From sequence record NC_014467.1: a stretch of 64,000 nt of DNA; one strand, 5' to 3'. The position numbers were made by a program, and so were the translations under genes. This DNA is from Escherichia phage RB16. Position 1 is the first letter of the stretch; every line of letters starts with the position of its first letter. This document shows positions 44,766 through 53,227 of this stretch, piece after piece. Below the pieces are notes generated by a model. That model was not told the origin of the DNA and ran no database searches. It saw only the letters and a list, made by a program, of their open reading frames with translations.

Positions 44766-45422
44766 ATGAAAATTGATTACGAATTGGTAGAAGGGTTCCG
44801 TGCTCTGCCTACTAAAGAACAGAAAGGCGCACTGGCTGACTACGCTCAAAGCACCTTCGAAGTAAAACTGAACAAACAAAAATCATTCGATAACATGCTG
44901 GCTGATCTGGAAGCTGCTGTACCAGCGGAAGAAAAACCGGAACTGTTGATTGATTCCCCAGAACCAGAAATAGTTTCGTACACTGGTAGCTCTATGATGG
45001 ATGAACCTGTTGTTAACGCTCCGAACATTCCTGATGTGGTTGTCGATGTGTCGCAGGACTTTATGAATTACGTCAAAGAAGTTGCGCCGGAAGTGGCTGA
45101 CCAGATTCAATTAGTACCTGATGTTGTAGAAGCTCCTGTAACCGCTTCTGACGAGTCCAAAGCTGATACGGCATGGTTGGATGGTTTTAGTCCTACCATC
45201 GTTCTGATGGGGCGTAGCGCTCGTTCTAACGGCTATTATACGTGTCCCTGGTGGATCTATGATTGGATTAAGAAAAATCCAGATTGGTACAAAGATCCTG
45301 ACCAATGTCCACACTACAGCGCACGGGATACCCTGAAATCGCTGGTGTACTACATCAAGCGTGATGGTCAAGTTACTGTGCGTGAAACTCGCAACAGCAG
45401 TTTCGACACCTTCAAGTTTTAG
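44766..45422 (+). CDS. hypothetical protein (218 aa) with C-terminal CPWWIYDWIKKNPDWY motif
   Basis: ORF track; shares the PWWIYD-x-I...DW motif with the ORF at 46477. Confidence 0.55.
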   Translation: MKIDYELVEGFRALPTKEQKGALADYAQSTFEVKLNKQKSFDNMLADLEAAVPAEEKPELLIDSPEPEIVSYTGSSMMDEPVVNAPNIPDVVVDVSQDFMNYVKEVAPEVADQIQLVPDVVEAPVTASDESKADTAWLDGFSPTIVLMGRSARSNGYYTCPWWIYDWIKKNPDWYKDPDQCPHYSARDTLKSLVYYIKRDGQVTVRETRNSSFDTFKF

Positions 45423-45442
45423 CACTTTTTGCTAAAATCTGG

Positions 45443-45471
45443 TTGACTCATACCCCGCTTTAAAGTATATT
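45443..45471 (+). promoter_or_regulatory. sigma70-like promoter candidate (TTGACT-17-TATATT)
   Basis: Hexamer match upstream of the gene at 45522. Confidence 0.35.
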
Positions 45472-45521
45472 TGTACTCGAAGGCGGGGGAAAGGCTCTCG
45501 CAGTGAAAGAAGGAAAGCAAA

Positions 45522-45839
45522 ATGAAAAACGAAATGATGAAAAATGCTTATTATCCGGTTCTGTTTGTTTGGGGCGGGGAAAAAGTTAAAACTATCGTTA
45601 ATTCACAAGCTCCGTATTACACTGTTGGTGAAGCACTTCGTCATGCCGCCGAAGCTGATTATCCGGTATCATTTGAACCTGGTTATGCTCGTTGGAATGG
45701 TTCTAAATGGGTTGCTGATAGCTGGGACAACTACGAAGAATCAAGAATGGAACATGATCCTGATTATGTTTCTCGCCAGATGGAAGCGCACATGATTGCA
45801 GACCGTCGCCTCGATAACGAAGCTCGCGGGTTCTGGTAA
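45522..45839 (+). CDS. hypothetical protein (105 aa)
   Basis: ORF track; AGGA SD; terminator downstream. Confidence 0.5.
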   Translation: MKNEMMKNAYYPVLFVWGGEKVKTIVNSQAPYYTVGEALRHAAEADYPVSFEPGYARWNGSKWVADSWDNYEESRMEHDPDYVSRQMEAHMIADRRLDNEARGFW

Positions 45840-45844
45840 AATTT

Positions 45845-45868
45845 AAGGGGGCGAAAGCCTCCTTTTTT
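45845..45868 (+). terminator. rho-independent terminator (GNRA-loop hairpin + T6)
   Basis: AAGGGGGC-gaaa-GCCTCCTTTTTT. Confidence 0.55.
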
Positions 45869-45879
45869 ATAGGTGAAGA

Positions 45880-50240: not shown

Positions 50241-50400
50241 ATGATCGTGTTTTAGCAATTCTCGTTTTCCTTCTGGGGTATCGGGTTGAAGTATTGGGTT
50301 GGTATATGGCGCTTAATGGTGATCTGACCGCAATTTGGATGGTTTCATTAGGCATTCTGTTTACTTTCTTATCGTGTGATATCGACAATAGGGCTACCCA

Positions 50401-50727
50401 ATGAAACTATTTTATGTAGTGTATAGCGGTATGGTTAATGTTGATGTTCCCTTGCTTTCCGTCGAAACGATTGATACACTCGAAGGGAAGATCGGAAAAC
50501 GTTTTAAAACTACCGTATCAGAAATCAGTACGGTGTTTGTTGACCATCCGTCAGATCTGGAAAATTTAATCAACACTCTCGATGATTTGCAAATCCCGTT
50601 TGCTGAAATTTATCATCACCAATCGGGGCTGTATTTGATTGTGACATTTGTTCTAAAAAATGTTGACAGCAGAAATCCAGAAGTGCTAGATTTTATCCGT
50701 AACATTGATTCAAATAAAGGAAAGTGA
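50401..50727 (+). CDS. hypothetical protein (108 aa)
   Basis: ORF track. Confidence 0.5.
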   Translation: MKLFYVVYSGMVNVDVPLLSVETIDTLEGKIGKRFKTTVSEISTVFVDHPSDLENLINTLDDLQIPFAEIYHHQSGLYLIVTFVLKNVDSRNPEVLDFIRNIDSNKGK

Positions 50728-51068
50728 TTATGAAAATCGTTCAGCGTAATATCAGCGAAGTTAGCCAGGAAGAAAAAGTTCAGATCCATTTCAAATTCAA
50801 TGATCTGAAACGTGGTTATGCAGAAATTGCCCGTGTTCATAAGTTGGACAATGGCGACATTTATATGATTGTCCAGGAAATTGAACGAATCCGCGCTTTC
50901 CGTGCCGAAAACCCGAAAGTAAAACGTGTTCTTCGTCGTGTGTATGTGAATAAACATCGTAAAGCTGCGAAACCAGTTAAACCAAAACGCGAACCGCGTC
51001 CAGACAACAAACGCAAAGCAATTAACGGCGCTATGGCGTTGGCTTTCCAGGAAGCAGGTTTAGTGTAA
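50724..51068 (+). CDS. hypothetical protein (114 aa) with basic C-terminus
   Basis: ORF track; translational coupling with upstream ORF. Confidence 0.5.
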   Translation: MIMKIVQRNISEVSQEEKVQIHFKFNDLKRGYAEIARVHKLDNGDIYMIVQEIERIRAFRAENPKVKRVLRRVYVNKHRKAAKPVKPKREPRPDNKRKAINGAMALAFQEAGLV

Positions 51069-51077
51069 GGGGTTAAC

Positions 51078-51605
51078 ATGAGTCGTAGAAATATGGAACG
51101 CTGGAATACTATTGTAACCAGCAGTATCAAACCTGTTGCGCCAGCGTTCAAGGAAGTTGTAGAAGAAACTCCGGTTAAAACACAGACTGTTGTATCTTTG
51201 AGTGAAGATGATTTAGAGCACCGTCGCCGTGCGAATCAAATTGAATTCGATCTGCGTATTGCTCGTTCATACAACAGCAAAAACGATGATGCGCGTAGTC
51301 GTAACCTGCAATTTGCTCTTACGTTGGGCGATTGGACTGTGTTAATGAGTCAAACTACTTGTGCGTATTCCGGCAAGGTGTTTAGCACTCGCGGAGACAG
51401 CCCGAACTCTCGAACGATGGAACGTATTAACCCTATGTTGGGCTATACCCCAGAAAACACGATCGCAGTGACAAAAGCCGCTAACAGTGAAAAATCATCA
51501 CTCGACGCGTTCATGAAGGGTTCTGTAATCCTTCCAGAAGTAAAACTGAAACTGTTACGCAAAGCCGCGTACCAAATTGAAAAACAACTGAAAATTAAAG
51601 GTTAA
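51078..51605 (+). CDS. hypothetical protein (175 aa)
   Basis: ORF track. Confidence 0.5.
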   Translation: MSRRNMERWNTIVTSSIKPVAPAFKEVVEETPVKTQTVVSLSEDDLEHRRRANQIEFDLRIARSYNSKNDDARSRNLQFALTLGDWTVLMSQTTCAYSGKVFSTRGDSPNSRTMERINPMLGYTPENTIAVTKAANSEKSSLDAFMKGSVILPEVKLKLLRKAAYQIEKQLKIKG

Positions 51606-51609
51606 TATT

Positions 51610-52653
51610 ATGTTTGTGAAATATTCTTCTCTTACGAACCATTATGAAGGTAAATTCATCAATGGTGTGATCATGAATGGTTTGACGGGCGGTGTGTGGG
51701 TTGCTCGTGAAAAGATCCACGGTGCAAACTTTAGTCTGATGACTTCTGACGGAGAAAAGGTTATTCCGGCAAAACGTAGCGGTGAAATCCTCCCTACTGA
51801 ACAGTTTTACGGTTGTGAACCTGTTGTTGCTCGATATGCCCCAGCAATCCGTAAACTGTGGGATGCCCTCAATACTGCACAGCAGGTTAGCGGGATTTAC
51901 GATGCGCCGCTGGTAATTCAGGTATACGGAGAATTCGCAGGGCGTGGTGTTCAGAAAGATGTTGACTACGGTGAAAAAGATTTCTACGTGTTTGATATCC
52001 GTGTGAATGGTAATTTCCTACCTGATAACGTTGTTGCGACCTATGCCGTTGCTGTTGGTTTGAAAATGGCCCCGCTGTTAGCATACGGCACTTTTGACGA
52101 GATCCGAGCACTTCCGATCACGTTTGATTCAGTGGTTAACCTGGCGAACTCCGGCGCGATTCCTGCACATAACGGGGTTGAACCTGAATTCAAAAACTTC
52201 ATGACGCTGAAAGATGGTGAAGGTGAGAACATCGCAGAAGGTTTCGTAATGAAGCCCGTACACCCTGCTTTCATGCCGAACGGTGACCGTGTTGCAATCA
52301 AATGCAAAACGACGAAGTTTAGCGAGAAGAAAAACAAACAAGCGAACCGCTTCAATGCTCCGGCTGAACTGTCGGAAAATGATAAAGTTAAACTGGATGT
52401 GTTCACCTGCTACCTGACAGAAAACCGCGTTAAAAACGTCCTGTCTAAAATTGACAGCGCGAACCTTACCGCGAAAGACTTCGGTCGCGTCATGGGGCTG
52501 ACTGTACAGGATGCTCTTGAAGAAATCGAACGCAACTACGGACCGTTTATCGAACAGTTTGAAAACCCGACGCTGGCGAAGAAAACTTTCACCAACGAAG
52601 CCTCAAGCCTGATTCGTACAAACTGGGGCGCAATCCTGAACAATGAATTTTAA
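51610..52653 (+). CDS. rnlB: RNA ligase 2 (RnlB)
   Basis: N-terminus MFVKYSSLTNHYEGKF...GGVWVAREKIHGANFSL with the KIHG nucleotidyltransferase motif I; later FYVFDI, VAIKCK, SEKKNK, GLTVQDALEEIE match T4 Rnl2. Confidence 0.9.
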   Translation: MFVKYSSLTNHYEGKFINGVIMNGLTGGVWVAREKIHGANFSLMTSDGEKVIPAKRSGEILPTEQFYGCEPVVARYAPAIRKLWDALNTAQQVSGIYDAPLVIQVYGEFAGRGVQKDVDYGEKDFYVFDIRVNGNFLPDNVVATYAVAVGLKMAPLLAYGTFDEIRALPITFDSVVNLANSGAIPAHNGVEPEFKNFMTLKDGEGENIAEGFVMKPVHPAFMPNGDRVAIKCKTTKFSEKKNKQANRFNAPAELSENDKVKLDVFTCYLTENRVKNVLSKIDSANLTAKDFGRVMGLTVQDALEEIERNYGPFIEQFENPTLAKKTFTNEASSLIRTNWGAILNNEF

Positions 52654-53227
52654 AACTGTTCTCGAAAACGCAAAAACGGCTACCCTGATCGGTAGCCGTG
52701 AACCCCCCGAACGTATAGCAAACATCGCTATCAAGATCGGACGTGCATTAAGTGATCGAGGTATTTTAGCTTATTCTGGTGGTGCTCCTGGAATGGATAG
52801 CCATTTCTTGTTTGACTACGCACCAGAAAGACGGCGCATAATTCTCCCTGAAAACGGTTTTAACGGGCTTTGCTCGAATGGTATGGATATTATCGACTAT
52901 AACGAGTTAGACACGTACAAAGCCGCTGATGAAGCGAGAAAGGTATCTGGGAACTTCGATTACCAAAACGAATGGACACAAAGGCGTTATGCGAGAAATG
53001 CAGTTCAGATATTGCGCGAAAATTTAGACAGCCCGACTGACTTCGTGTTATTTTGGGCTATCGAAAAGGATTTTTGTGTCAAGGGCGGTACGGCTATCGC
53101 AACACGCCTTGCACGATTATACGGTGTTCCCAGTTTCAACCTGTGGAAAGAAAACGTATTGAATGATGTTTGTGATACTTTGGGGATTAATATCAAACCT
53201 CCAACTTTGGATTTTCTCTGGTGCTAA
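52643..53227 (+). CDS. hypothetical protein, possible SLOG/DprA-like Rossmann fold
   Basis: LIGSREP...YSGGAPGMD resembles the glycine-rich motif of DprA/SLOG-family proteins; weak. Confidence 0.4.
   Translation: MNFKTVLENAKTATLIGSREPPERIANIAIKIGRALSDRGILAYSGGAPGMDSHFLFDYAPERRRIILPENGFNGLCSNGMDIIDYNELDTYKAADEARKVSGNFDYQNEWTQRRYARNAVQILRENLDSPTDFVLFWAIEKDFCVKGGTAIATRLARLYGVPSFNLWKENVLNDVCDTLGINIKPPTLDFLWC

What the first reader, a model, noticed from the sequence alone, without database searches (positions are those of the whole stretch)
44766..53227. Accessory cluster with RNA-repair-like gene content
This 8.5-kb stretch between uvsW and nadV contains RNA ligase 2, two HAD-fold proteins (45880 and 47531), a P-loop-like protein (48043) and about ten unknown small genes under sigma70-like and late promoter candidates. 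Ligase plus kinase plus phosphatase are the activities T4 uses (Pnk and Rnl1) to reseal tRNAs cut by host anticodon nucleases. Here they appear as separate genes in a different arrangement, which could be a variant RNA-repair or nucleotide-pool anti-defence module.
Basis: inference. Interest (0 to 1): 0.55.

Follow-up and report, generated by a model that had tools for sequence, protein, structure and literature searches.

The report
Mosaic phage accessory region, not a repair module

Summary
The window is a Pseudotevenvirus, 97.5% identical to Buttiauxella phage GuL6 and 96% to RB43. The listed genes exist: Rnl2 (51610-52653), a "Swiss-army-knife" HAD phosphatase with a zinc ribbon (45880-46449), an NT5C-type HAD (47531-47993, minus strand) and a Zeta-toxin/PNK-like P-loop kinase (48043-48876, minus strand).

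The region is not one module. Three of the "unknown" genes are T4 inh, hoc and srd. The order uvsW | inh-hoc-...-rnlB is T4's own synteny, expanded by insertions. Close relatives carry canonical pseT and rnlA about 95 kb away.

In 80 viral contigs with the kinase, an NT5C-like HAD follows it directly in 17. That includes 7 contigs where the kinase is only 53-64% identical. Rnl2 and the SAK-HAD lie near the kinase only in the RB43/KP15 lineage. Other kinase neighbours are dNMP kinase and thymidine kinase.

The NT5C family matches solved 5'(3')-deoxyribonucleotidases (E 2.5e-11). In this window the gene is frameshifted by an extra T, and a neighbouring paralogue has lost all catalytic residues.

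Verdict: gene content confirmed; the RNA-repair reading is partly supported at most. The best reading is a nucleotide-level kinase/phosphatase pair beside unrelated genes. Substrates are untested and interest is modest.

The parts
43195..44694 (-). uvsW helicase; left boundary, divergent from inh as in T4
   Evidence: Pfam UvsW_N 1.3e-31 plus helicase domains; T4 map
44766..45422 (+). Inh, prohead protease inhibitor (a T4 core-region gene, not an unknown)
   Evidence: phrog_1051 1.8e-69; 36% identical to T4 Inh, E 3e-37
45522..45839 (+). 105-aa protein of unknown function, followed by a terminator-like hairpin at 45845-45864
   Evidence: phrog_7518 only; promoter-like site at 45443-45471 and terminator
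45880..46449 (+). Standalone 'Swiss-army-knife' (SAK) HAD phosphatase. Motifs I-IV are intact (FLDIDGV, SSTWR, RG, ILDDDCD). The short motif I-II spacing suggests it is capless. It has a C-terminal DnaJ-type CXXCXGXG zinc ribbon.
   Evidence: Pfam HAD_SAK_2 103 bits, E 2.2e-29; DnaJ_CXXCXGXG 9.4e-5; invariant motifs in alignment A8
46445..46452 (+). T4-type late promoter box TATAAATA, immediately upstream of hoc
   Evidence: 9 exact matches in the window against 2.6 expected; this is the only one in the region
46477..46980 (+). Short Hoc-like head decoration protein
   Evidence: phrog_11091 1e-112; 40% identical to the T4 Hoc C-terminal part, E 9e-15
46996..47496 (+). Catalytically dead paralogue of the NT5C-like HAD. 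Motif I is FEFND instead of FDMDG, the motif II Ser/Thr is lost, and motif IV DD has become SR.
   Evidence: phrog_2643 7.7e-54; alignment A4; conserved in all 10 RB43/KP15-like loci
47499..47529 (.). Bidirectional intrinsic terminator between the convergent 46996 and 47531 genes
   Evidence: 13-bp and 11-bp stems with T tails on both strands
47531..47993 (-). NT5C-type HAD (5'(3')-deoxyribonucleotidase family), frameshifted here by an extra T in the run 47987-47982. With one T removed, the 153-aa product is 100% identical to the Citrobacter phage KKP_3664 protein.
   Evidence: family profile against PDB 3bwv 2.5e-11 and mdN 1.8e-10; 23 of 27 members hit Pfam NT5C
48018..48046 (-). Sigma70-like promoter (11/12 match), overlapping the kinase stop codon, upstream of the HAD gene
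48043..48876 (-). Zeta-toxin/PNK-like P-loop kinase. It has Walker A AGGAGSGKGF (32-41), D55-V-D57, a Walker B-like NLIFD131 and the lid motif Q-N173-x-x-R176-x-R178.
   Evidence: Pfam Zeta_toxin in 34 of 34 members (best 9.5e-10) and AAA_33 in 21 of 34; invariant residues; family of at least 2484 proteins
48909..48938 (+). Sigma70-like promoter (11/12 match) heading the plus-strand gene run 48989-53227
48989..49894 (+). 301-aa hypervariable protein of unknown function. It is only 43% identical to its RB43 counterpart, whereas the kinase next door is 99.6% identical.
   Evidence: weak colinear resemblance to PolB motifs A and B
49923..50240 (+). 105-aa conserved protein annotated elsewhere as a putative ADP-ribosyltransferase; not verified here
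   Evidence: phrog_2110; 172 homologues; invariant H15-G16, Y60, E103; no Pfam or PDB hit
50237..51068 (+). Three small overlapping genes of unknown function (55, 108 and 114 aa). The last gives a sub-threshold DUF2774 hit.
51078..51605 (+). Srd-like protein ('decoy of host sigma70') with HNH-like similarity
   Evidence: phrog_4592 3.8e-76; phrog_3118 HNH 3.9e-22
51610..52653 (+). RNA ligase 2 (RnlB), in the T4-syntenic position
   Evidence: TIGR02307 1e-76; Pfam RNA_ligase and T4_Rnl2_C; 45% identical to T4 RnlB; synteny
52643..53227 (+). DprA-like/SLOG protein whose start overlaps the rnlB stop by 11 nt
   Evidence: phrog_768 1.7e-58; Pfam DNA_processg_A 5.7e-5; weak ShosA and PsyrA hits

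Best explanation
The region is the RB43-lineage version of T4's uvsW | inh-hoc-...-rnlB segment, expanded from about 3.4 kb to about 7.9 kb by independently acquired accessory genes. It is not a dedicated RNA-repair module.

It holds several separate units:
1. The late head genes inh and hoc.
2. An early minus-strand two-gene cassette. A Zeta/PNK-clade P-loop kinase is followed directly by an NT5C-type HAD phosphatase. I infer this is a nucleotide-level (small-substrate) phosphorylation/dephosphorylation couple that remodels or salvages nucleotide pools. In this particular genome copy the phosphatase reads as frameshifted.
3. A dead NT5C paralogue.
4. A standalone capless SAK-type HAD, plausibly a polynucleotide or RNA 3'-phosphatase acting on its own.
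5. A long early plus-strand run ending in srd-rnlB-SLOG.

Rnl2 seals RNA nicks that carry 3'-OH and 5'-PO4 ends. Where end-healing is needed, the lineage's canonical bifunctional Pnk (pseT), encoded about 95 kb away next to rnlA, can supply it.

Shown here: gene identities, family assignments, synteny, the frameshift and the neighbourhood statistics. Inferred: every substrate and activity.
For: - Identity of the phage and its annotated relatives.
- T4 has the same order and orientation, uvsW | inh, hoc, 24.3, 24.2, rnlB. The window's Inh, Hoc and Rnl2 are homologous to the T4 proteins.
- pseT, rnlA, gp1 and tk are present elsewhere in RB43. pseT is also present in GuL6 and IME-CF2.
- The NT5C assignment rests on a profile match to PDB deoxyribonucleotidases and on Pfam NT5C hits in 23 of 27 family members. 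A distant kinase-linked partner passes the Pfam NT5C cut-off (31.7 against 24.8 bits).
- An NT5C-like HAD lies 30-82 nt downstream of the kinase on the same strand in 17 of 78 viral loci. Seven of those have kinases only 53-64% identical. The pair is also present in Morganella phage vB_Mm5.
- Rnl2, SAK-HAD, SLOG and Srd lie near the kinase only in the 10 RB43/KP15-like loci. No PseT, RnlA or RlaP lies within 10 kb of the kinase in any locus.
- Other kinase neighbours are nucleotide-metabolism genes: a DNMK dNMP kinase in 3 loci and thymidine kinase in 3.
- Transcription signals split the region into separate units.
- SAK-HAD has no dominant neighbour in 73 other viral loci.
Against: - The kinase is not in an NMP or dNMP kinase family. 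Its nearest families are Zeta_toxin and AAA_33, and AAA_33 includes polynucleotide kinases.
- The kinase aligns weakly but colinearly with the Pnk kinase domain across Walker A, the Asp, Walker B and the RNxxR-like lid (hhalign E 0.0022, probability only 13%).
- The gene order kinase then HAD mirrors the domain order of T4 Pnk.
- The SAK-HAD family is labelled an RNA-repair phosphatase in Pfam and in PMC7824862.
- The hoc...[HAD<-kinase][301aa->ART-like->...->srd->rnlB] arrangement is kept in Morganella phage vB_Mm5, where the kinase is 72% identical.
- No structure model could be obtained and no activity is known for any of these proteins.
Confidence: 0.5

Rival explanations
1. The kinase, one or both HADs and Rnl2 form a second, split RNA end-healing and sealing pathway. 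The kinase makes 5'-PO4 ends, a HAD removes 3'-phosphate and Rnl2 seals. This pathway would complement Pnk-Rnl1 against other RNA-cutting defences.
For: - All three activity classes lie within 6.8 kb.
- The kinase is in the Zeta/AAA_33 clade and resembles the Pnk kinase domain more than gp1.
- SAK-HAD is a family predicted to be an RNA 3'-phosphatase (PMC7824862).
- The arrangement is conserved through Slopekvirus and Morganella phage vB_Mm5.
- A kinase homologue in Cronobacter phage S13 lies among tRNA genes, 1.5 kb upstream of a DUF2828/DUF7788 protein annotated as RNA-binding.
- Jumbo phages often carry several non-redundant RNA ligases (PMC7824862).
Against: - The kinase's conserved partner is an NT5C-type nucleotidase, and that gene is frameshifted here.
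- Outside one lineage the kinase is never within 10 kb of Rnl2, RnlA, PseT or RlaP (0 of 70 loci).
- Outside the RB43-like loci, 1 of 73 SAK-HAD loci has Rnl2 within 10 kb and 6 to 9 have PseT. I judge that close to what a random position in a 150-250 kb genome would give; this was not computed.
- The genes lie on opposite strands in different transcription units, with the late gene hoc interposed.
- The position of rnlB is ancestral.
- T4 has Rnl2 but does not appear among the listed matches to the kinase or the SAK-HAD.
Confidence: 0.2
2. The region is an NAD+/nucleotide-signal counter-defence island. NadV, the 105-aa putative ADP-ribosyltransferase, the SLOG protein, the HADs (including the dead paralogue acting as a nucleotide binder or sponge) and the kinase would act on NAD-derived or nucleotide immune signals, or on pools depleted by host defences.
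For: - NadV lies 1.3 kb beyond the region, and an NMNAT-Nudix gene is present in RB43.
- In the KVP40-like phage ValKK3 and in locus L155, the SAK-HAD sits directly upstream of the NMNAT-Nudix gene. In ValKK3 a YAcAr SLOG gene lies about 3 kb away.
- The SLOG protein gives weak hits to the defence antitoxin-like proteins ShosA and PsyrA.
- The 105-aa family is annotated as an ADP-ribosyltransferase in several records.
- A conserved catalytically dead nucleotidase paralogue is present.
Against: - The ART assignment could not be verified: no Pfam or PDB hit and a failed structure model.
- SAK-HAD lies near NadV or NatV in only 3 of 73 other loci.
- The kinase lies near NadV in 1 of 70 other loci.
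- The ShosA and PsyrA hits cover only 47 residues of generic SLOG motif.
- No PADLOC hits for the other genes.
Confidence: 0.12
3. The kinase is a Zeta-toxin-like UDP-sugar kinase used for host takeover. It would block peptidoglycan synthesis by phosphorylating UDP-GlcNAc, and the adjacent HAD would act as an enzymatic antidote or modulator.
For: - Zeta_toxin is the best Pfam family in all 34 members sampled, above the gathering cut-off.
- The kinase gene has an early-type position divergent from the 48909 promoter.
- A cell-wall hydrolase is the upstream neighbour in 11 distant loci.
Against: - The Pfam match covers only residues 104-199 at modest scores.
- No epsilon-type antitoxin is present.
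- The partner HAD is a nucleotide-monophosphate phosphatase family, not a sugar-nucleotide phosphatase.
- A profile search of PDB sequences found no zeta or PezT structure.
Confidence: 0.07

Closest known systems
T4 Pnk (PseT) plus Rnl1 tRNA repair pathway, which counters the PrrC anticodon nuclease
   Same: The region has a P-loop kinase, a HAD-fold phosphatase and an ATP-dependent RNA ligase. The kinase-then-HAD gene order mirrors the Pnk domain order. The kinase aligns weakly and colinearly with the Pnk kinase domain.
   Different: The genes are separate rather than one bifunctional protein. The HAD partner is NT5C-type, not the PNK-type HAD. The ligase is Rnl2, not Rnl1, and sits in another transcription unit. 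The true pseT and rnlA are present elsewhere in the lineage.
'Swiss-army-knife' (SAK) HAD phosphatases of RNA-repair systems (Pfam PF18143; Burroughs & Aravind 2016, from my own knowledge; Iyer et al. 2021, PMC7824862)
   Same: The protein at 45880-46449 is a clear member (103 bits) with intact catalytic motifs. It is standalone, as described for phages.
   Different: It carries an added DnaJ-type zinc ribbon, found only in the RB43 group. No conserved linkage to RNA ligases or kinases appeared in 73 other viral loci. No activity has been shown for any member.
5'(3')-deoxyribonucleotidases of the NT5C family (human mdN and cdN; PDB 3bwv)
   Same: The family profile aligns over nearly the full length with motifs I-IV. 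Pfam NT5C is hit by 23 of 27 members.
   Different: The proteins are shorter (about 153 aa against 180-200 aa), with deletions in the segment between motifs I and II (the cap region). The window protein alone scores below the Pfam cut-off (18.3 against 24.8 bits). The gene is paired with a Zeta/PNK-like kinase and is frameshifted in this window.
Zeta/PezT toxin kinases (PF06414)
   Same: This is the best-scoring Pfam family. The protein has a Walker A motif, a downstream Asp and lid arginines.
   Different: There is no epsilon antitoxin and no toxin-antitoxin organisation. The protein is phage-encoded and highly conserved (at least 2484 proteins). No PDB zeta structure was retrieved by profile search.
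T4 Rnl2 (RnlB)
   Same: 45% identical over the full length, with both domains and the same genomic position relative to inh, hoc and uvsW.
   Different: Here it is followed by an overlapping DprA-like/SLOG gene and preceded by srd.

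Membership tests
Rnl2 (T4 RnlB) RNA ligase | Match to the equivalog model TIGR02307 above its curated cut-off | tested here: met
   258.6 bits against a cut-off of 197.15, E 1e-76
Rnl2 (T4 RnlB) RNA ligase | Nucleotidyltransferase domain plus the Rnl2-specific C-terminal domain | tested here: met
   PF09414 at 3.1e-19 (residues 30-232) and PF18043 at 1.6e-14 (residues 262-318); motif I lysine context EKIHGAN is visible in the translation
Rnl2 (T4 RnlB) RNA ligase | Sealing of 3'-OH/5'-PO4 nicks in duplex RNA | not testable with these tools
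   Needs an enzyme assay
T4-type bifunctional polynucleotide kinase/phosphatase (Pnk) | Kinase and phosphatase domains in one polypeptide | tested here: not met
   The kinase (48043-48876) and HAD (47531-47993) are separate ORFs 50 nt apart, with a promoter-like site between them
T4-type bifunctional polynucleotide kinase/phosphatase (Pnk) | Kinase domain homologous to the Pnk kinase domain | tested here: inconclusive
   hhalign of A1 against RB43 PseT: E 0.0022, probability 13%, 116 colinear columns; AAA_33 hit in 21 of 34 members, best 1.5e-4, below the gathering score
T4-type bifunctional polynucleotide kinase/phosphatase (Pnk) | PNK-type HAD 3'-phosphatase domain | tested here: not met
   The partner HAD family matches NT5C. 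HAD_PNKP is hit by 1 of 27 members at 0.0049. hhalign of A4 against the PseT phosphatase gives E 4.7e-4, probability 33%.
Zeta toxin kinase family (PF06414) | Pfam model match above the gathering score | tested here: met
   30.7 bits against 22.3; all 34 sampled members match, best 9.5e-10
Zeta toxin kinase family (PF06414) | Toxin-antitoxin organisation with an epsilon/PezA-type antitoxin | tested here: not met
   The neighbours are an NT5C-like HAD and a 301-aa protein. The family scans of the neighbouring genes returned no antitoxin family.
Zeta toxin kinase family (PF06414) | UDP-GlcNAc 3'-kinase activity | not testable with these tools
   Needs an enzyme assay
dNMP/NMP kinases (T4 gp1, DNMK) | Sequence or profile similarity to dNMP kinase families | tested here: not met
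   hhalign against RB43 gp1: E 0.19 over 21 columns. The families most often matched by the 34 members include no DNMK, thymidylate kinase or adenylate kinase family.
NT5C 5'(3')-deoxyribonucleotidase family | Homology to solved NT5C enzymes over the HAD core and cap | tested here: met
   Family profile against 3bwv 2.5e-11, mdN 1.8e-10 and cdN 2e-7; 23 of 27 members hit PF06941. The window protein alone scores 18.3 bits against a 24.8 cut-off.
NT5C 5'(3')-deoxyribonucleotidase family | Intact motif I nucleophile (DxD) in this genome | tested here: not met
   The extra T at 47987-47982 truncates the N-terminus, and the ORF restarting at M7 lacks D6. Relatives are intact.
HAD_SAK_2 ('Swiss-army-knife' RNA-repair HAD) | Pfam model match and intact HAD motifs I-IV | tested here: met
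   103.1 bits against a 27.5 cut-off; invariant D25, D27, S65, R102-G103 and D122-D124
HAD_SAK_2 ('Swiss-army-knife' RNA-repair HAD) | Genomic or domain association with RNA ligase, kinase or nucleotidyltransferase | tested here: inconclusive
   Within 10 kb in 73 non-RB43-like viral loci: Rnl2 in 1, RnlA in 2, PseT in 6 (plus 3 marginal), RlaP in 2. No dominant neighbour.

The most novel reading that the evidence does not exclude
The Zeta/PNK-like kinase and its NT5C-like HAD partner are a conserved 'split Pnk' that heals polynucleotide (RNA) ends or converts 3'-nucleotides. In the RB43/KP15 lineage the pair has been brought together with a SAK-HAD and Rnl2, giving a second RNA-repair route that works alongside Pnk-Rnl1 against RNA-cutting defences. 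The catalytically dead NT5C paralogue may act as a nucleotide-binding decoy.
Probability: 0.15. Interest if true: 0.6.

Novelty: new member of a known kind. Interest (0 to 1): 0.3.

Why it matters
The result mainly stops an over-reading. A ligase, a kinase and phosphatases lying close together in a T4-type hyperplastic region does not make them a pathway. Here the ligase's position is inherited from the T4-like ancestor, and the classical Pnk/Rnl1 repair genes sit elsewhere.

What stays useful is a concrete, testable pair. A very widespread phage kinase of unknown substrate (at least 2484 proteins, and in one phage interrupted by an intein inside its P-loop) is repeatedly followed by an NT5C-type phosphatase.

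Finding their substrates would fill a gap in how large lytic phages handle nucleotides or nucleic-acid ends. It would also test the untested prediction that standalone SAK-HADs are RNA 3'-phosphatases.

Tried and rejected
Single-sequence models of the kinase and the 105-aa protein were unusable (mean pLDDT 41.7 and 42.4), so no fold search was run.
- PDB sequence and profile searches found nothing for the kinase or the 105-aa family. The 301-aa family gave only non-significant PolB motif-B hits (E 0.7).
- NCBIfam had no model for the kinase, the HADs, the 301-aa protein or the 105-aa protein. PADLOC hit only the SLOG protein, weakly.
- Domain fusions gave no functional clue. KVP40.0065 is a degenerate kinase (Walker A lost) with an unassignable C-terminal half. 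The Tenacibaculum phage PTm1 protein is the kinase interrupted by an intein.
- dNMP-kinase identity for the P-loop protein was considered and rejected.
- Programmed frameshifting at the A3T6 site was considered. A sequencing error or recent mutation is more likely, because the closest relatives have T5 and an uninterrupted ORF. This was not tested.
- The Burroughs & Aravind 2016 paper is not in the held library. Its content is cited from memory and through PMC7824862.
- No tRNA genes were found in the window.

Full report
**What the window is.** The 8.5-kb stretch is 97.5% identical to Buttiauxella phage vB_ButM_GuL6, 97.1% to Citrobacter phage IME-CF2 and about 96% to Escherichia phage RB43. 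In all, 176 phage records match it. The window is therefore a Pseudotevenvirus, an RB43-like member of the T4 family (Straboviridae). Public annotations of the same stretch name Inh, Hoc, Srd and RnlB, a 'DprA-like' protein, two '5'-3' deoxyribonucleotidases' and, in some records, a 'zeta toxin domain' or 'polynucleotide kinase' protein.

**Checking the observation.**
- Rnl2 (51610-52653) is secure. It scores 258.6 bits on TIGR02307 against a cut-off of 197, has both Pfam domains, and is 45% identical to T4 RnlB.
- The protein at 45880-46449 matches Pfam HAD_SAK_2 ('HAD domain in Swiss Army Knife RNA repair proteins') at E 2.2e-29. It ends in a DnaJ-type CXXCXGXG zinc ribbon.
- The minus-strand ORF at 47531 and the plus-strand ORF at 46996 both fall in phrog_2643, '5'-3' deoxyribonucleotidase'.
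- The P-loop protein (48043-48876) matches Pfam Zeta_toxin above its gathering score.
- Sigma70-like hexamer pairs as a class are not above chance (22 against 19.3 +/- 4.6). The two best sites (11/12) do sit in the expected intergenic places. One late-promoter box, TATAAATA, lies immediately before hoc.

**The region is T4 synteny plus insertions.** In T4 the order is uvsW, then divergently inh, hoc, 24.3, 24.2 and rnlB. The window has the same order and relative orientation, with extra genes inserted. These are a 105-aa gene and the SAK-HAD between inh and hoc, a dead NT5C paralogue after hoc, the minus-strand kinase-HAD cassette, and a run of six genes including srd before rnlB. Rnl2's presence here is therefore inherited position. 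It is not evidence that it was recruited next to a kinase and phosphatases.

**The classical repair genes are elsewhere.** RB43 encodes rnlA and bifunctional pseT about 95 kb away. It also encodes gp1 dNMP kinase, thymidine kinase, an nrdC.11 nucleotidyltransferase and an NMNAT-Nudix protein. Full-length PseT is also present in GuL6 and IME-CF2, the closest relatives of the window. The kinase and HADs here are additions to Pnk, not replacements.

**The HAD at 47531 is a nucleotidase relative, and it is broken in this genome.**
- The window reads ATG AAA TTT TTT CTT TGA, while GuL6 and RB43 read ATG AAA TTT TTC TTT GAT ATG GAT GGT. The cause is a T6 run (47987-47982) in place of T5.
- Removing one T gives a 153-aa protein 100% identical to a Citrobacter phage KKP_3664 protein, with the canonical motif I FDMDGVL.
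- A profile of the family (51 proteins found) matches solved 5'(3')-deoxyribonucleotidases over nearly the full length: 3bwv at E 2.5e-11, mitochondrial dN at 1.8e-10 and cytosolic dN at 2e-7.
- 23 of 27 members hit Pfam NT5C.
- The longer segment between motifs I and II corresponds to the cap region of NT5C enzymes. In HAD enzymes a cap goes with small substrates; that is general knowledge of the superfamily, not tested here.
- The plus-strand paralogue at 46996-47496 aligns with the family but has E and N in place of the two motif I aspartates. It has no motif II Ser/Thr, and SR replaces the motif IV DD. It is a conserved pseudo-enzyme, present in all ten RB43/KP15-like loci.

**The kinase.**
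- Its family is large (at least 2484 proteins) and very conserved.
- Invariant residues form a P-loop phosphotransferase signature: AGGxxSGKxF, D55-V-D57, RKPNxIFD131 and Q-N173-x-x-R176-x-R178.
- All 34 sampled members match Zeta_toxin (best 9.5e-10) and 21 match AAA_33 (best 1.5e-4). None of the families most often matched is an NMP or dNMP kinase family.
- A profile comparison with RB43 PseT aligns 116 colinear columns across the kinase domain, but weakly (E 0.0022, probability 13%). The comparison with gp1 is noise (E 0.19).
- No solved structure is retrievable by sequence, and structure prediction failed.
- It is therefore a Zeta/PNK-clade kinase with an unknown acceptor. The Zeta-toxin resemblance of the RB43 orthologue was already listed in 2006 (PMC1524935).

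**What travels with what.** I fetched 80 viral-contig loci encoding kinase homologues at 49-100% identity and searched their flanks with profiles and reference proteins.
- An NT5C-like HAD lies 30-82 nt downstream on the same strand in 17 of the 78 loci that have enough downstream sequence.
- Ten of these are RB43/KP15-like. Seven have kinases only 53-64% identical (L034, L036, L038, L039, L042, L063, L083).
- A distant partner passes the Pfam NT5C cut-off. The pair is also adjacent in Morganella phage vB_Mm5.
- Rnl2, SAK-HAD, SLOG, Srd, the 105-aa gene and the 301-aa gene are near the kinase only in the ten RB43/KP15-like loci.
- PseT, RnlA and RlaP are never within 10 kb of the kinase.
- Other recurrent neighbours are a DNMK dNMP kinase (3 loci), thymidine kinase (3), a cell-wall hydrolase and a haem oxygenase.
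- In annotated distant phages the neighbourhoods also differ. In Cronobacter phage S13 and Ralstonia phage RSP15 the kinase lies near tRNA genes.

**The SAK-HAD.** Its catalytic motifs are intact and invariant across distant homologues. The short spacing between motifs I and II suggests a capless enzyme, which is typical of HADs acting on macromolecular phospho-ends. That is an inference from general HAD knowledge. Iyer et al. 2021 state that in jumbo phages the phosphatases serving ATP-grasp RNA ligases are either PNK-fused HADs or standalone 'Swiss-army-knife' HADs (PMC7824862, sec. 3.4.9). That is a prediction, not an assay.

In 79 viral loci with SAK-HAD homologues, the 73 outside the RB43 group show the following within 10 kb:

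| Gene | Loci |
|---|---|
| Rnl2 | 1 |
| RnlA | 2 |
| PseT | 6 (plus 3 marginal) |
| RlaP | 2 |
| NatV | 3 |
| NadV | 2 |
| the kinase | 0 |

There is no dominant neighbour cluster. I judge these frequencies to be about what a random position in a 150-250 kb genome would give, but I did not compute this. Individual contexts are mixed:
- a peptidyl-tRNA hydrolase, tRNAs and a CCA-adding enzyme in Shewanella phage 1/4;
- thymidylate synthase and DHFR in a Rhizobium phage;
- directly upstream of the NMNAT-Nudix gene in ValKK3.

**Transcription units.** A bidirectional terminator (47499-47529) separates the convergent 46996 and 47531 genes. The kinase-HAD cassette is on the minus strand, with an 11/12 promoter-like site before the HAD. 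A divergent 11/12 site (48909-48938) heads the plus-strand run 48989-53227. That run ends with srd, rnlB and an overlapping SLOG gene. hoc has its own late box. The three 'repair' activities therefore lie in three different units.

**Conclusion.** The gene content is confirmed. The 'RNA-repair module' reading is only partly supported.
- The one evolutionarily conserved linkage is kinase plus NT5C-type phosphatase.
- Its other neighbours are nucleotide-metabolism genes, which favours a nucleotide-level role (confidence about 0.5).
- The split-Pnk/RNA-repair reading is not excluded (about 0.2). The kinase clade, the kinase-then-HAD order and the SAK-HAD label all point that way.
- An NAD- or nucleotide-signal counter-defence reading is a weaker third option.
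- All substrates are inferred, and enzyme assays and knockouts would settle them.

Every gene belongs to a known family and is already present in dozens of deposited genomes, so novelty is low and interest modest.

Noticed in passing
window 47976-47993 (minus strand): The NT5C-like HAD gene has a +1 T in a homopolymer (T6 at 47987-47982; GuL6 and RB43 have T5). This gives MKFFL-stop and removes the catalytic Asp from the remaining ORF. It is either a sequencing or assembly error or a recent pseudogenisation.
   Followed up: yes
window 46996-47496 (+): This is a conserved paralogue of the NT5C-like HAD that has lost every catalytic residue (motif I D->E and D->N, motif II Ser/Thr lost, motif IV DD->SR). 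It lies convergent with the active copy across a shared bidirectional terminator. It may be a nucleotide-binding pseudo-enzyme.
   Followed up: partly
window 48989-49894 (+): This 301-aa gene is hypervariable. It is 99% identical to IME-CF2, 67% to Lw1 and only 43% to RB43, while the kinase next door is 99.6% identical to RB43. It shows weak colinear resemblance to family-B DNA polymerase motifs A and B (BLASTP against gp43 E 0.04; the only PDB profile hits are Pol epsilon motif B at E 0.7). The motif A Asp is replaced by Ser/Thr.
   Followed up: partly
window 49923-50240 (+): This 105-aa protein is highly conserved in many T4-like phages (172 homologues). Invariant residues are H15-G16, S37-E38-x-G-R-x-K-N-L, Y60-A-x-R63 and E103. 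Several records annotate it as an ADP-ribosyltransferase. No Pfam or PDB match was found and the structure model failed, so the assignment is unverified.
   Followed up: partly
window 52643-53227 (+): The DprA-like/SLOG gene starts 11 nt before the rnlB stop codon, which suggests translational coupling. It gives weak PADLOC hits to the antitoxin-like defence proteins ShosA (1.4e-4) and PsyrA (1.5e-3) over 47 residues.
   Followed up: no
L010:2900-4741 (Tenacibaculum phage PTm1, ORF-187): The kinase homologue is interrupted by an intein with a LAGLIDADG-like domain, inserted exactly inside the Walker A motif (AGGAG | C...SGN | SGKGF). This hints that the kinase matters to the phage.
   Followed up: partly
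L012:3992-5437 (Vibrio phage KVP40, KVP40.0065): The KVP40-type homologue of the kinase has a degenerate Walker A (ELGTASTEFSKGKG) and about 250 extra C-terminal residues with no assignable family.
   Followed up: partly
window 44766-45422 and 46477-46980: The Inh C-terminus (residues 153-211) resembles the C-terminal part of T4 Hoc (E 2e-6), and the local Hoc-like protein is only 167 aa. Inh and Hoc appear to share a module.
   Followed up: no
L017:4004-5614 (Vibrio phage ValKK3) and L155: In KVP40-like phages the SAK-HAD gene sits about 70 nt upstream of the NMNAT-Nudix (NatV) gene, and in ValKK3 about 3 kb from a YAcAr SLOG gene. This is a possible link to NAD metabolism rather than RNA repair.
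   Followed up: partly
window 51078-51605 (+): The Srd-like 'sigma70 decoy' protein also matches HNH endonuclease families (phrog_3118 at 3.9e-22, phrog_1035 endonuclease VII at 5e-6).
   Followed up: no
L009:6401-7804 (Cronobacter phage S13): The kinase homologue in S13 lies among tRNA genes, 1.5 kb upstream of a DUF2828/DUF7788 protein annotated as RNA-binding. This is the one distant context that hints at RNA.
   Followed up: no
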